Shown here: one piece after another, positions 20,189 through 30,471 of the stretch
Layout: each line of letters opens with the position of its first letter
Numbering within the stretch: position 1 is the first letter of the stretch
UHGV virus genome: UHGV-0068509
Origin: a virus
Direction: 5' to 3' (one strand)
DNA: 31,722 nt
Position numbers and translations under genes: made by a program
The notes under the pieces: generated by a model
The model's input: the letters and a program-made list of their open reading frames with translations, nothing else
What the model was told of the DNA's origin: nothing
The model's database searches: none

Positions 20189-20264
20189 TGGTGCCGGTTA
20201 ACGGATTTGAACCGCTACCTATTCACTTACAAGGCGACCGCTCTACCATTGGAGCTAAACCAGC
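20189..20264 (-). tRNA. tRNA-Thr (anticodon UGU), 76 nt with encoded CCA
   Basis: Hand-folded cloverleaf: 7-bp acceptor stem (one G-U), 4-bp D stem with GG in loop, anticodon loop CT-TGT-AA, T loop TTCAAAT, discriminator A, CCA. Confidence 0.7.
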
Positions 20265-20269
20265 ATGTT

Positions 20270-20344
20270 TGGCGGGACAGCGTGGACTCGAACCACGATA
20301 AGAAGGTTAACAGCCTTCCGTAATGACCTTTATACGACTGACCC
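20270..20344 (-). tRNA. tRNA-Asn (anticodon GUU), 75 nt with encoded CCA
   Basis: Hand-folded: perfect 5-bp anticodon stem, loop CT-GTT-AA, perfect T arm CGTGG-TTCGAGT-CCACG, acceptor stem with one mismatch, 4-nt variable loop, CCA. Confidence 0.6.
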
Positions 20345-26829: not shown

Positions 26830-26875
26830 TCGCTTTGTCAGCGACGTAGGACGAATGTCCATTGTGAAAAGAGCG
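26830..26875 (-). promoter_or_regulatory. nutR: nutR-like site: boxA-like CGCTCTTTT and boxB hairpin TCGC-TGACAAA-GCGA
   Basis: boxB loop TGACAAA is identical to the nutL boxB loop in this window; located between cro and cII. Confidence 0.5.
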
Positions 26876-28487: not shown

Positions 28488-29009
28488 ATGGCAAAGTCAA
28501 ACGTTAGCGTGCAGGCATTCAAGGACTTCCTTGAAGAGCTTATGTCGCTGAACATAATGAAGGAGGCCACCGCTCGAAATTTAAAAAACTCATCCGCTCG
28601 CCTCTTAACGGTAGTCCAAGAAGAGGAAATGGGTGATGTTACTCAGCTTGATGTGAATGAGCTTGCCGAGCGATACATCAACGCAACTGAGCCGAAGCCT
28701 AGCGACAGCAGCATTACTGCATATAAAAGCCGCATGGAAAGTGCAATCAAAAAGTTTGTAGCTTTCCAGTCTGGTGAAGAAATCCCATACACTCCGATTG
28801 ACAAAGAATCCAGTGAGGAAAAAGATTTGACTGGCGAACCAACAAAAGTCGAAGGCAAGGCTAATGCACTTCATACCTATGATCTTCCAGTAGTTCTTCG
28901 ACCTGAATCAGGGGTTACAGTAACGATTAAAGGCATTCCTAACGATATCACAAACGAAGAAGCCGAACGCATCTCTTCAATTCTGAAGGTTTACGTTCGG
29001 CCTCAATAA
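28488..29009 (+). CDS. Hypothetical 173-aa soluble protein in the cI-pL immunity-region hotspot (rex/sieB-equivalent position); no family recognised
   Basis: ORF with purine-rich RBS and own promoter; no TM segments; acidic helical N-half and beta-rich C-half; flanked by terminators. Confidence 0.7.
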   Translation: MAKSNVSVQAFKDFLEELMSLNIMKEATARNLKNSSARLLTVVQEEEMGDVTQLDVNELAERYINATEPKPSDSSITAYKSRMESAIKKFVAFQSGEEIPYTPIDKESSEEKDLTGEPTKVEGKANALHTYDLPVVLRPESGVTVTIKGIPNDITNEEAERISSILKVYVRPQ

Positions 29010-29311
29010 TGCAAAAGCATTCAGCACAATGTCCAACTCCCCAGTCCGACATTGATGCTGTTTAACCAGAGCCTCCAAAAGGAGCCCTTGTTAAGGTACA
29101 CAATATTTGCGATGTAACCTTAGCGCGTCTGGTACATTTTTTCAAGCGGTTGTAGGGCTGCCGCCAATATGAGAAAACACAGATGTCTACATACAATTTG
29201 AATGACCAATTCGATCGAGAAGTTCATGTGAATGCCTATGAACGGATAAGGCATGGAAATCTTGAACATGTGTGTGAGCATTATCGCTCAAGGCCACACC
29301 GCTAATCATCA

Positions 29312-29339
29312 ACCCGGCCTCAGCGCCGGGTTTTCTTTG
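29312..29339 (+). terminator. Intrinsic terminator (tIMM-like) upstream of oL/pL
   Basis: Hairpin ACCCGGC-CTCAGC-GCCGGGT followed by TTTTCTTT. Confidence 0.65.
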
Positions 29340-29518: not shown

Positions 29519-29562
29519 TTTATCATTTTGCTATTGCCATTAATTTATCATTCCGATAAAGT
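29519..29562 (+). promoter_or_regulatory. oL/pL: operator sites with TTTATCA half-sites overlapping a candidate leftward-operon promoter
   Basis: TTTATCATTTTGCTATT and TTTATCATTCCGATAAA; -35 TTGCCA (29534-29539), 17-nt spacer, -10 TAAAGT (29557-29562). Confidence 0.55.
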
Positions 29563-29630
29563 TTGCCCATCAGCAGGACGCACTACTCACCAGGGCGGTG
29601 AATATACAACGATTCGAATATGAATCTACG

Positions 29631-29645
29631 GCGCTGACAAAGCGC
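29631..29645 (+). promoter_or_regulatory. nutL: nutL boxB hairpin
   Basis: GCGC-TGACAAA-GCGC, matching the P22-type boxB as I recall it; upstream of the N-like gene. Confidence 0.6.
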
Positions 29646-29678
29646 AATAACCAAAGTGAACTTTGGGGTGTGGTGAAG
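29641..29678 (+). repeat. Leader repeat A, copy 1 (38 bp; contains hairpin CCAAAGT-GA-ACTTTGG)
   Basis: Identical 38-bp copy at 29918-29955. Confidence 0.8.
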
Positions 29679-29874
29679 CCAGCTAGTCACTGGCAAGTGC
29701 TTACCTACTGTTGAGCGGTGAAGCGCTCCCAACGCTAGCAATAGCGTGGACGAGATGGGGAGCCGCGGGCGATAAGGCCGCCATAACGCGCACGTTGTCG
29801 CATGGAAAAATCACTGGGGTGCCGGTTATACCCCTCCGAATGAGACTCAACAAGCTGGAGCTAGACTACCAGCC

Positions 29875-29918
29875 ACCACACCACCAAAGTTCATCAGGAG
29901 GTCTATATGACACGCAGA
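29875..29918 (+). repeat. Leader repeat B, copy 1 (44 bp; contains RBS AGGAGG, ATG and the first four N codons)
   Basis: Identical 44-bp copy at 30056-30099, which is the genuine N start; this copy opens a mini-ORF MTRRAQ (29907-29927). Confidence 0.8.
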
Positions 29919-29955
29919 GCGCAATAACCAAAGTGAACTTTGGGGTGTGGTGAAG
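29918..29955 (+). repeat. Leader repeat A, copy 2
   Basis: Identical to 29641-29678. Confidence 0.8.
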
Positions 29956-30055
29956 GGTTCATGGACGGGAATATGTCGCACGTAAAGCGGCGAGGCCTGC
30001 GGGACTATTGCCGAATTGAAGTAGGCCGAAACAGGTCGAAATGGGTCTCCCACCT

Positions 30056-30099
30056 ACCACACCACCAAAGTTCATCAGGAGGTCTATATGACACGCAGA
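30056..30099 (+). repeat. Leader repeat B, copy 2 (genuine N translation-initiation region)
   Basis: Identical to 29875-29918. Confidence 0.8.
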
Positions 30100-30471
30100 A
30101 CTCAGTTCAAAGGCAATTCACGTTCTCGTCGTCGTGAGCGTTTAAAGGCAAAGGCATTAGCTAACGGCGTACTGGCCCGCGAAGAAGCAATAAGTTCAGA
30201 AGTATTACACCGCCCTACTCTAAGCAGAGCGCAGATTCAGGCTAAAGGTACTCACGAAACGCCTGAGCGCATAGAAGACGCTAAGCCAATTAAGTTCATG
30301 GCACAGGACGTGATCTGGCAACAGAAAGAATACAGACGCAATCTGGAGCGAGCGGCCATTGTGTACGCGAATGAGTTTGGACATAAGCAACCAGAAACTG
30401 GTGTATGTCTTCCAAACGTAGCCATTTACTCGGCAGGCTACCGGAAATCAAAACAACTGACGGCGAGGTAA
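30088..30471 (+). CDS. N: N-like early antiterminator (P22 gp24 family) with Arg-rich RNA-binding N-terminus
   Basis: MTRRTQFKGNSRSRRRERLKAKA (arginine-rich motif); C-terminus ...VAIYSAGYRKSKQLTAR resembles P22 gp24. Confidence 0.8.
   Translation: MTRRTQFKGNSRSRRRERLKAKALANGVLAREEAISSEVLHRPTLSRAQIQAKGTHETPERIEDAKPIKFMAQDVIWQQKEYRRNLERAAIVYANEFGHKQPETGVCLPNVAIYSAGYRKSKQLTAR

What the first reader, a model, noticed from the sequence alone, without database searches (positions are those of the whole stretch)
29631..30099. Duplicated N-leader elements with long-range complementarity and a decoy mini-ORF
Two different exact repeats are interleaved upstream of the N-like gene: A (38 bp, at 29641 and 29918) and B (44 bp, at 29875 and 30056). 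B contains the RBS, the ATG and the first four codons of N. The upstream copy therefore opens a 6-codon mini-ORF (MTRRAQ, 29907-29927) that runs into repeat A. The 3' part of A (GAACTTTGGGGTGTGGTG) is largely complementary to the 5' part of B (CACCACACCACCAAAGTTC), so A and B can form roughly 18-bp duplexes enclosing unrelated inserts of about 196 nt and 100 nt. Such a duplex would be an RNase III-type substrate and would position or occlude the RBS. This looks like either a translational control device for N or the scar of cassette exchange between phages sharing A and B as flanking sequences.
Basis: seen in the sequence. Interest (0 to 1): 0.55.

Follow-up and report, generated by a model that had tools for sequence, protein, structure and literature searches.

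The report
Doubled RNase III hairpin in N leader
The repeats are real: this phage carries two different versions of the well-known structured leader hairpin that sits in front of the antiterminator gene N, joined head to tail by a one-off recombination accident that left a six-codon stub of N between them. It is a curiosity rather than a new regulatory device.

Summary
Repeat A is 38 bp exact and repeat B is 44 bp exact. The mini-ORF MTRRAQ lies at 29907-29927. The A:B duplexes (16 bp plus one bulged A, about 20 bp with flanks) enclose 196 nt and 100 nt.

The A and B arms match the arms of the phage lambda N-leader hairpin. From the literature and my memory, that hairpin is the RNase III site controlling N translation, and the A arm is nutL boxC.

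Relatives have one module, boxB-A-insert-B-SD-N. 933W, AU5Stx1 and mEp506 carry the 100-nt insert ("Y"). Sf6, HK544 and E. coli 730V1 carry the 196-nt insert ("X"). In IMG/VR the same arms enclose nine length classes of insert, which reassort with different boxB and N types.

The window is unique in carrying X and Y modules in tandem. The junction joins N codon 4 to the 3' half of boxB with 1 nt of microhomology. I found it in no phage record, complete E. coli genome, IMG/VR contig, JGI metagenome contig or GTDB representative.

Best reading: a neutral recombination scar in a known regulatory element. The N-proximal module is intact, so N control is probably unchanged. Interest is low to moderate.

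The parts
29311..29332 (+). Intrinsic terminator hairpin followed by a T-run. It corresponds to the terminator that the 933W record annotates as tM, at the end of the repressor operon.
   Evidence: Terminator scan. It aligns with the annotated 933W tM.
29534..29562 (+). pL-like promoter (TTGCCA-17-TAAAGT). The transcript start is at about 29569 (ATCAGCAGGACGCAC, as in lambda pL).
   Evidence: Promoter scan. Sequence identity to the start of the lambda pL transcript.
29577..29645 (+). nutL, the counterpart of the nutL annotated in the 933W record. It ends in an intact boxB, GCGCTGACAAAGCGC, at 29631-29645.
   Evidence: BoxB occurs only once in the leader; the only other boxB-like site is the nutR-type site at 26830-26844 on the minus strand.
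29641..29678 (+). Repeat A, copy 1. It contains the 3' half of boxB, a local mini-hairpin CCAAAG-TGAA-CTTTGG (29651-29666), and the 5' arm of hairpin 1 (29656-29675, boxC-like GGGGTGTGGTG).
29679..29874 (+). Insert X (196 nt), the interior of hairpin 1. It is the same cassette as in Sf6, HK544, HK446, HK633, mEp213, mEp043, Sf101 and the E. coli 730V1 prophage.
   Evidence: (19 phage records at 99.5% identity). The module folds at -101.3 kcal/mol, z = -5.4. No Rfam family matches.
29874..29894 (+). 3' arm of hairpin 1 (CACCACACC-A-CCAAAGTTCAT, with A29883 bulged). It forms the start of repeat B, copy 1 (exact repeat 29875-29918).
29896..29927 (+). Duplicated N ribosome-binding site (AGGAGG at 29896-29901) and the mini-ORF ATG ACA CGC AGA GCG CAA TAA (MTRRAQ*, 29907-29927).
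   Evidence: The ORF is below the 20-aa limit of the ORF listing, so I read it directly from the sequence.
29917..29919 (+). The novel junction. N codon 4 (..CGCAGA) is joined to the 3' half of boxB (AGCGCAATAACC..). Only A29918 is shared, giving 1 nt of microhomology.
   Evidence: Alignments A1 and A2. The junction 25-mer is absent from all collections searched.
29918..29955 (+). Repeat A, copy 2. It includes the 5' arm of hairpin 2 (29933-29952). The 5' half of boxB is missing, so there is no second nut site.
29956..30055 (+). Insert Y (100 nt), the interior of hairpin 2. It is the cassette found in 933W, AU5Stx1 and mEp506.
   Evidence: The module folds at -60.4 kcal/mol, z = -4.0.
30055..30075 (+). 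3' arm of hairpin 2, at the start of repeat B, copy 2 (exact repeat 30056-30099).
30077..30471 (+). The genuine N ribosome-binding site (AGGAGG at 30077-30082, 1 nt from the base of the helix) and the N gene (30088-30471, 127 aa, 933W/H-19B type).
   Evidence: Pfam N_peptide PF25694, E = 3.1e-15, 57 bits against a cutoff of 27.9. Matching phage records annotate the gene as antitermination protein N.

Best explanation
The A and B arms are the two strands of the conserved helix that closes the large structured element between nutL and the N ribosome-binding site in lambdoid phages. The 5' strand is the boxC-like GGGGUGUG(G)UG motif.

In lambda this helix is the RNase III processing site of the pL leader. 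Cleavage removes structure next to the Shine-Dalgarno sequence and cuts the nutL-bound N/Nus complex away from the N ribosome-binding site. This raises N translation and relieves N autorepression.

The interior of the hairpin is an exchangeable cassette. The window carries two allelic modules in series: boxB-A-X-B-SD-ATG-3 codons | A-Y-B-SD-N. This is what one illegitimate crossover would produce. One parent was a genome with the X-type leader, broken after N codon 4. The other was a genome with the Y-type leader, broken in the middle of boxB. The result is a 277-bp heterologous tandem duplication.

The mini-ORF is a by-product of that junction. nutL is intact and the N-proximal module (A2-Y-B2-SD-N) is identical to that of 933W-like phages. 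RNase III cutting of whichever helix contains B2 should therefore give the normal mature N mRNA.

The duplication is most likely neutral or mildly deleterious. Its only plausible effects are a longer nutL-to-RBS distance (457 nt against 180 nt from boxB to the ATG) and some wasted initiation at the stub.

**Shown here:** the anatomy, the correspondence to lambda and 933W, the parental types, the absence of the arrangement from every collection searched, and the predicted folds.

**Inferred:** RNase III cleavage and the consequences for N expression.
For: - **Match to lambda.** Lambda has the same arms in the same place: CTTTGGGGTGTGTG at +83..+96 and CACACACCACCAAAG at +187..+201 of the pL transcript, with the N AUG at +223.
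[quoted passage not shown] N'. [quoted passage not shown] - **Single-module relatives.** 933W, AU5Stx1 and mEp506 align end to end apart from one 277-bp gap. The E. coli 730V1 prophage has the same nutL and N with cassette X alone. Sf6 and HK544 have X with lambda-type boxB and N.
- **Survey of viral contigs.** About 50 IMG/VR modules fall into nine length classes (77 to 229 nt). Their interiors are mutually unrelated, apart from one pair that shares 39 nt. X and Y each occur with both lambda-type and 933W-type flanks.
- **Covariation.** The outer helix flanks covary with N type: GUGAAC/GUUCAU, AGUUGG/CUAACU, GG/CU.
- **Folding.** Both modules close with the A:B helix in both the MFE and centroid structures. 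The whole leader folds with z = -5.4.
- **Uniqueness.** No full-length match in 50,697 phage records or 5,426 E. coli genomes. No junction 25-mer in GTDB representatives, IMG/VR or JGI metagenomes. No arrangement of B followed by A within 30-60 nt in IMG/VR or the metagenomes.
Against: - RNase III cleavage has not been shown for 933W-type leaders. The cleavage positions in lambda come from my memory, because the primary papers were not held.
- The thermodynamic optimum of the doubled leader is not two tandem hairpins. It is a nested fold, A1:B2 plus B1:A2, at -200.9 against -195.8 kcal/mol. The RNA may therefore behave differently from the sum of two normal modules.
- Uniqueness is equally what an artefact would show, and I cannot see the reads.
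- No single known genome matches the X-type parent across the upstream immunity region. The best is ABWA45 at 95.8%. The history may therefore have involved more than one event.
Confidence: 0.75

Rival explanations
1. The tandem leader is a selected, two-stage translational control device. The upstream SD and mini-ORF would act as a decoy or ribosome sink, or as a peptidyl-tRNA drop-off minigene like the lambda bar minigenes. The alternative pairings A1:B1/A2:B2 and A1:B2/B1:A2 would act as a switch that tunes N synthesis.
For: - Both copies are intact, with a strong SD (AGGAGG, 5-nt spacing) and an in-frame stop.
- The two topologies lie within 5 kcal/mol of each other. The prefix folds switch from A1:B1 to B1:A2 once A2 has been transcribed.
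- The mini-ORF stop lies only 6 nt upstream of the 5' arm of hairpin 2 (stop codon ends at 29927, arm begins at 29933), so a terminating ribosome could open it.
Against: - There is no second example anywhere.
- All relatives function with a single module.
- The junction has the look of an accident: 1 nt of microhomology, and it bisects boxB and N codon 4.
- In either topology the helix containing B2 has the same sequence, so the processed N mRNA would be the same.
Confidence: 0.07
2. The duplication is an assembly or library artefact. It would be a chimeric join of two co-resident prophages, one with an X-type and one with a Y-type leader.
For: - The arrangement is unique across all collections searched.
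- E. coli genomes often carry several lambdoid prophages with these leaders, up to 4 places per genome.
- The two parental modules match known alleles at close to 100%.
Against: - The junction ..ACGCAGA|GCGCAAT.. shares only 1 nt between the parental sequences. An overlap- or k-mer-based assembler has no path that would create it.
- Collapsing or expanding the A and B repeats would give A-X-B or A-Y-B, not this join.
- The sequence on both sides is colinear with a single phage genome.
Confidence: 0.13
3. X, or the whole 277-bp unit, is a small mobile element (MITE-like or intron-like) that inserted into the N leader and duplicated its target.
For: X is bounded by imperfect inverted repeats of 16-20 bp, which are the arms. 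It is nearly identical (99.5%) in many otherwise different phages.
Against: - In phages with X alone, X replaces Y between the same arms rather than being added.
- The same 'terminal repeats' enclose other inserts that are mutually unrelated, apart from one pair sharing 39 nt, and all occur only at this locus.
- The repeats in the window are interleaved as A-B-A-B. They are not a flanking target-site duplication.
- No Rfam intron or ribozyme family matches, and there is no tRNA or tmRNA.
Confidence: 0.03

Closest known systems
Phage lambda N-leader hairpin (nutL boxC helix), the RNase III processing site that modulates N translation and N autorepression (Steege 1987; Kameyama 1991; Wilson 1997, 2002)
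   Same: - Same position, between nutL boxB and the N Shine-Dalgarno sequence on the pL transcript.
- Near-identical arm sequences.
- The same bulged A.
- A helix of about 20 bp closing a structured interior.
   Different: - The interior cassettes X and Y are unrelated to lambda's.
- The SD abuts the helix at 1 nt, against about 9 nt in lambda.
- There are two modules in series with a stub of N between them, which no other genome searched shows.
- RNase III cleavage is untested for these leaders.
Single-module N leaders of 933W/H-19B-type Stx phages, and of Sf6/HK544-type phages
   Same: Module 2 plus N is identical or nearly identical to 933W, AU5Stx1 and mEp506. Module 1 is identical to the E. 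coli 730V1 prophage and 99.5% identical to Sf6 and HK544.
   Different: Those genomes have one module each. The window has both, joined at a novel junction.
rrn operon leader-trailer helix, with boxC as the 5' strand of the RNase III site (PMC10250234)
   Same: A GU-rich boxC downstream of boxA/boxB forms the 5' strand of a long helix. That helix is the RNase III substrate and loops out the intervening RNA.
   Different: In rrn the helix encloses 16S rRNA and serves ribosome assembly. Here it encloses a non-coding cassette of 100-200 nt and sits next to an mRNA ribosome-binding site.
Lambda bar minigenes (two-codon ORFs that cause peptidyl-tRNA drop-off); comparison from memory
   Same: A very short ORF with a good SD on a strongly transcribed early phage RNA.
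   Different: The bar minigenes are conserved. Their toxicity depends on specific last sense codons and on Pth-limited hosts. The MTRRAQ ORF here is a junction by-product with no conservation.

Membership tests
Lambda-type N-leader RNase III hairpin (boxC helix) | Lies on the pL transcript between nutL boxB and the N Shine-Dalgarno sequence | tested here: met
   pL-like promoter at 29534-29562. BoxB at 29631-29645. Arms at 29656-29675/29874-29894 and 29933-29952/30055-30075. N ATG at 30088.
Lambda-type N-leader RNase III hairpin (boxC helix) | Arms match lambda's CUUUGGGGUGUGUG / CACACACCACCAAAG | tested here: met
   Direct comparison with NC_001416. The only difference is a compensated extra G/C pair (GUGUGGUG/CACCACAC). 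The same arms occur in about 50 IMG/VR loci.
Lambda-type N-leader RNase III hairpin (boxC helix) | The arms form a helix of about two turns that closes a structured interior | tested here: met
   Duplex energy is -24 to -26 kcal/mol for the 16-bp core. With 14-nt flanks added, 20-24 bp form in most classes and 16 bp in one. The helix closes the MFE and centroid structures of both modules, at z = -5.4 and -4.0. These are predictions only.
Lambda-type N-leader RNase III hairpin (boxC helix) | Cleaved by host RNase III, with cleavage altering N translation | not testable with these tools
   This needs rnc+ and rnc- mapping and N'-lacZ fusions. It is known for lambda only, from references listed plus my own knowledge.
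nut site (boxA/boxB) of the 933W/H-19B/P22 type | An intact boxB hairpin, GCGCUGACAAAGCGC, downstream of the promoter | tested here: met
   29631-29645 is identical to the boxB inside the annotated nutL of 933W. A nutR-type partner lies at 26830-26844 on the minus strand.
nut site (boxA/boxB) of the 933W/H-19B/P22 type | A second functional nut site in the duplicated unit | tested here: not met
   Copy 2 begins at AGCGC. The 5' half of boxB is replaced by N codons (..ACGCAG). There is no boxB match within 2 mismatches near 29918.
N antiterminator protein (Pfam PF25694 N_peptide) | Scores above the Pfam gathering threshold | tested here: met
   E = 3.1e-15 and 57 bits against a cutoff of 27.9. 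Matching phage records annotate the gene as antitermination protein N.
Any curated RNA family (Rfam 15), tRNA or tmRNA for cassettes X and Y | A covariance-model or ARAGORN match | tested here: not met
   There is no Rfam match within 29570-30110 even at E <= 10. ARAGORN finds only the tRNA-Thr and tRNA-Asn genes at 20189-20344.
Transposable or MITE-like insertion | Flanking target-site duplication, and copies at unrelated loci | tested here: not met
   The repeats are interleaved as A-B-A-B. X occupies the same slot as Y in single-module phages. Each of the 19 phage records with X holds it at a single place; in the two examined (Sf6, HK544) that place is the N leader.

The most novel reading that the evidence does not exclude
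The invariant boxC and anti-boxC arms may be more than an RNase III site for N control. They could form a standard 'socket' from which RNase III releases a diversified payload of structured non-coding RNAs of 50-200 nt, very early and at high level from pL. I found nine length classes of cassette, one of which looks tRNA-like. Such RNAs could have their own functions, for example in host takeover or anti-defence. On this reading the window would show that the sockets can be stacked, giving two payloads on one transcript.
Probability: 0.07. Interest if true: 0.6.

Novelty: new variant of a known kind. Interest (0 to 1): 0.25.

Why it matters
As it stands this matters little. It explains an odd repeat pattern as a recombination scar inside a classic regulatory element. 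It also shows that the lambda N-leader/boxC helix is conserved base for base across lambdoid phages with very different nut sites and N proteins.

Two modest points of value follow.

- The doubled leader is a natural construct for testing how nutL-to-RBS distance and RNase III cutting shape N autorepression.
- The survey shows that the interior of the hairpin is a freely exchanged cassette between invariant arms. That sharpens the old open question of why the boxC sequence, and not just its pairing, is conserved.

Tried and rejected
- **AgvB/GcvB-type sponge sRNA.** I considered this because the arms are CA-rich and GU-rich. I rejected it because AgvB-type sRNAs lie between the late promoter and the lysis genes, and no Rfam sRNA matches here.
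- **tRNA-like or tmRNA-like cassettes.** ARAGORN finds nothing in the window leader or in nine comparison loci. For the tRNA-looking L022 cassette, Rfam gives only an 11-bit partial T-arm hit.
- **Covariation inside X.** The one diverged variant (L058, 12 differences) gave only G-C/G-U changes and unpaired changes. This is uninformative.
- **Finding the source genome or other carriers.** A look-up through the neighbouring 173-aa protein returned only prophages with a different 90-aa N. None carries the junction.
- **Primary papers on lambda N-leader processing.** Court 2007, Wilson 1997 and 2002, and Bubunenko 2013 are not held. A phrase search for 'N-leader' with 'RNase III' found nothing. 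The exact lambda cleavage positions therefore rest on my memory.
- **87-nt junction query.** The 87-nt junction query returned only two-piece 'places' in ordinary single modules, not contiguous matches.

Full report
**1. Observation**

The region was read directly and scanned for repeats.

- Repeat A is exact over 38 bp (29641-29678 and 29918-29955).
- Repeat B is exact over 44 bp (29875-29918 and 30056-30099). It extends to 58 nt at 91% identity.
- B carries AGGAGG, a 5-nt spacer, the ATG and the codons ACA CGC AGA.
- The downstream copy opens a 127-aa ORF (30088-30471). This ORF is an N antiterminator: Pfam N_peptide, E = 3.1e-15, and it matches genes annotated as N in 933W-type Stx phages at 98-99% DNA identity.
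- The upstream copy reads ATG ACA CGC AGA GCG CAA TAA, which is MTRRAQ*, at 29907-29927.
- The 3' part of A and the 5' part of B pair as 16 bp with one bulged A, at -24 to -26 kcal/mol. With the flanks GTGAAC/GTTCAT the helix reaches about 20 bp.
- The A arm occurs twice in the window, against 0.08 expected by chance.

**2. What the single unit is**

I aligned the window with 933W, AU5Stx1 and mEp506. All three are colinear with the window except for one 277-bp gap. They have a single unit, boxB - A - 100-nt insert (Y) - B - SD - N.

A search with the 196-nt insert (X) found it at 99.5% identity in 19 phage records, including Sf6, HK544, HK446, HK633, mEp213, mEp043 and Sf101. A search with the whole leader found X-type single modules in six complete E. 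coli genomes. The alignment shows two things.

- The E. coli 730V1 prophage has exactly boxB(933W type) - A - X - B - N(933W type).
- Sf6 and HK544 have X between the same arms, but with lambda-type boxB (GCCCTGAAGAAGGGC) and lambda-type N.

Phage lambda itself has the arms in the same place. CTTTGGGGTGTGTG lies at +83..+96 and CACACACCACCAAAG at +187..+201 of the pL transcript, with the N AUG at +223.

The A:B helix therefore matches the base of the large lambda N-leader stem-loop in position and arm sequence. The literature held here states that N and Nus factors bound at NutL repress N translation, and that the roughly 200-nt intervening sequence is highly structured. It cites Wilson et al. 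1997 and Wilson et al. [quoted passage not shown] It also lists the N leader among lambda's RNase III targets (Steege et al. 1987, cited in PMC5371410).

Two further points come from my own knowledge, because the primary papers were not held. First, RNase III cuts both strands of this helix, near +88 and +197. Second, the GU-rich 5' strand is the element called boxC of nutL.

The parallel with rrn operons is documented. There, boxC (UCUGUGUGGG) is the 5' strand of the leader-trailer helix that RNase III cleaves (PMC10250234; PMC8632103).

**3. The arms flank exchangeable cassettes**

I scanned IMG/VR for CACACCACCAAAGNT. After filtering for an A arm within 450 nt upstream, about 50 leader modules remained.

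- They fall into nine length classes: 77, 118 (two kinds, one of which is a lambda variant), 119 (lambda), 124, 133 (Y), 144, 153, 164 and 229 nt (X).
- The interiors share no significant similarity, apart from one pair with a common first 39 nt.
- X and Y each occur with lambda-type and with 933W-type boxB and N. Other cassettes go with further N types, such as MNAKQRCK.. and MSRRTSFN...
- Beyond the invariant core, the outer part of the helix covaries with the flank type: GUGAAC/GUUCAU, AGUUGG/CUAACU, GG/CU. This argues that the pairing is selected.

**4. What is special in the window**

Only the window has two modules in series. The join is ..TATATGACACGCAGA|GCGCAATAACC... N codon 4 of an X-type leader runs into the 3' half of boxB of a Y-type leader, and only one nucleotide (A29918) is shared.

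The simplest history is one illegitimate crossover between two phages or prophages that carried the two leader alleles. A tandem duplication followed by cassette replacement through the 38- and 44-bp arms is also possible, but needs two events.

The arrangement was absent from every collection I searched.

- The junction 25-mer is absent from GTDB species representatives, IMG/VR and JGI metagenome contigs, and from all loci fetched.
- No phage record and no complete E. coli genome of the 5,426 searched matches the leader full-length or the 87-nt B-to-A segment contiguously.
- A generic pattern, B arm then 30-60 nt then A arm, has no hit in IMG/VR or the metagenomes.

The duplication is therefore a one-off.

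**5. How it most likely works**

This section is inference built on the lambda model.

Transcription starts at a pL-like promoter (29534-29562), at about 29569. nutL is intact. Its boxB (29631-29645) is identical to that in the annotated 933W nutL, and a nutR-type partner lies at 26830-26844 on the minus strand. The duplicated unit has no boxB 5' half, so there is only one nut site.

Prefix folding shows that A1:B1 forms first, closing X. Once A2 is transcribed, the calculated optimum shifts to B1:A2. That is a short hairpin whose 48-nt loop holds SD1 and the mini-ORF. The full leader then prefers A1:B2 plus B1:A2 (-200.9 kcal/mol) over the tandem fold (-195.8 kcal/mol).

A1 and A2 are identical, and B1 and B2 are nearly so. 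Every possible helix is therefore the same dsRNA and presumably the same RNase III substrate. Whichever helix contains B2 would, when cut, leave the same N mRNA 5' end as in 933W-like phages. It would also detach nutL.

I therefore expect N expression and its RNase III dependence to be largely preserved. The distance from boxB to the N ATG grows from 180 to 457 nt, which might weaken N autorepression when RNase III is low. The mini-ORF may be translated when SD1 is exposed, but nothing indicates that this has been selected.

**6. Rival explanations**

- **Selected decoy or switch device (0.07).** It is disfavoured by the lack of any second instance and by the accidental look of the junction.
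- **Assembly or chimera artefact (0.13).** It cannot be excluded without reads. However, an assembler has no overlap path that would create a junction sharing only 1 nt.
- **Mobile-element insertion (0.03).** It is contradicted by allelic replacement in single-module phages and by the interleaved A-B-A-B repeat order.

**7. Comparison and novelty**

The element belongs to the lambda-type N-leader boxC/RNase III hairpin. Position, arm sequence and predicted helix were tested here and met. Cleavage and the effect on translation are not testable with these tools.

Cassettes X and Y match no Rfam family and are not tRNA or tmRNA.

The tandem, heterologous arrangement with an N stub is a new structural variant of a known element, seen once. 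The broader pattern of invariant arms with many unrelated interiors may be worth a note. [quoted passage not shown]

**8. Verdict**

The finding is of low to moderate interest (0.25).

The most novel reading still open is that RNase III releases the cassettes as functional early RNAs and that the sockets can be stacked. I put this at about 7% probability.

Noticed in passing
window 29651-29666 (and 29928-29943); lambda L007 about 701-716 on the minus strand; all nutL types: Every leader type has CCAAAG or CAAAG a few nucleotides upstream of the CTTTGG of the 5' arm. This gives a local mini-hairpin (CCAAAG-UGAA-CUUUGG here, CAAAGC-AGAAG-GCUUUG in lambda). That hairpin competes with the long-range helix for the same CUUUGG. 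In the prefix folds, A1 switches to this partner when B1 is taken by A2.
   Followed up: partly
L022 7891-8035 (IMGVR_UViG_2541047875_000007): This 144-nt cassette between the same arms looks tRNA-like. It has a GCUC-AACGGC-GAGC D-arm-like hairpin straight after GGUGUGGUG-AA. It also has a perfect T-arm-like hairpin, GCUGG-UUCGACU-CCAGC, followed by CACCACACC-ACCA. ARAGORN calls nothing, and Rfam gives only an 11-bit partial tmRNA hit (E = 0.23).
   Followed up: partly
L036, L100 and L102 (IMG/VR loci): The same hairpin module, with Y-type or lambda-type interior, is followed by ORF starts that are not recognisable N N-termini (MLDIMTNP.., MESYSLTL.., MNMKHNEH..). L036 also has a different boxB-like hairpin upstream. 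The module may therefore precede other early genes or other N analogues.
   Followed up: no
window 26830-26844 (-): A nutR-type boxB, TCGCTGACAAAGCGA, lies between the cro-like and cII-like genes. It has the same loop as the nutL boxB and a different closing pair.
   Followed up: no
window 20189-20344 (-): Two adjacent tRNA genes, tRNA-Thr (tgt) and tRNA-Asn (gtt), lie in the late-regulatory region of this P22-like mosaic phage.
   Followed up: no
window 28488-29009 (+): A 173-aa ORF sits between the cI-like repressor and pL, and has no Pfam match. The exact protein is extremely common in E. coli prophages (about 10,900 index blocks). There it usually sits next to a different, 90-aa N.
   Followed up: partly
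window 1-25000: The rest of the window is a P22-like (Lederbergvirus-type) structural and late region. It is about 94% identical over about half its length to phages E212, CUS-3, JEP4 and Kapi1, while the immunity and N region is closest to mEp506 and Stx1 phages. No record covers more than about 50%, so the phage is a new mosaic.
   Followed up: partly
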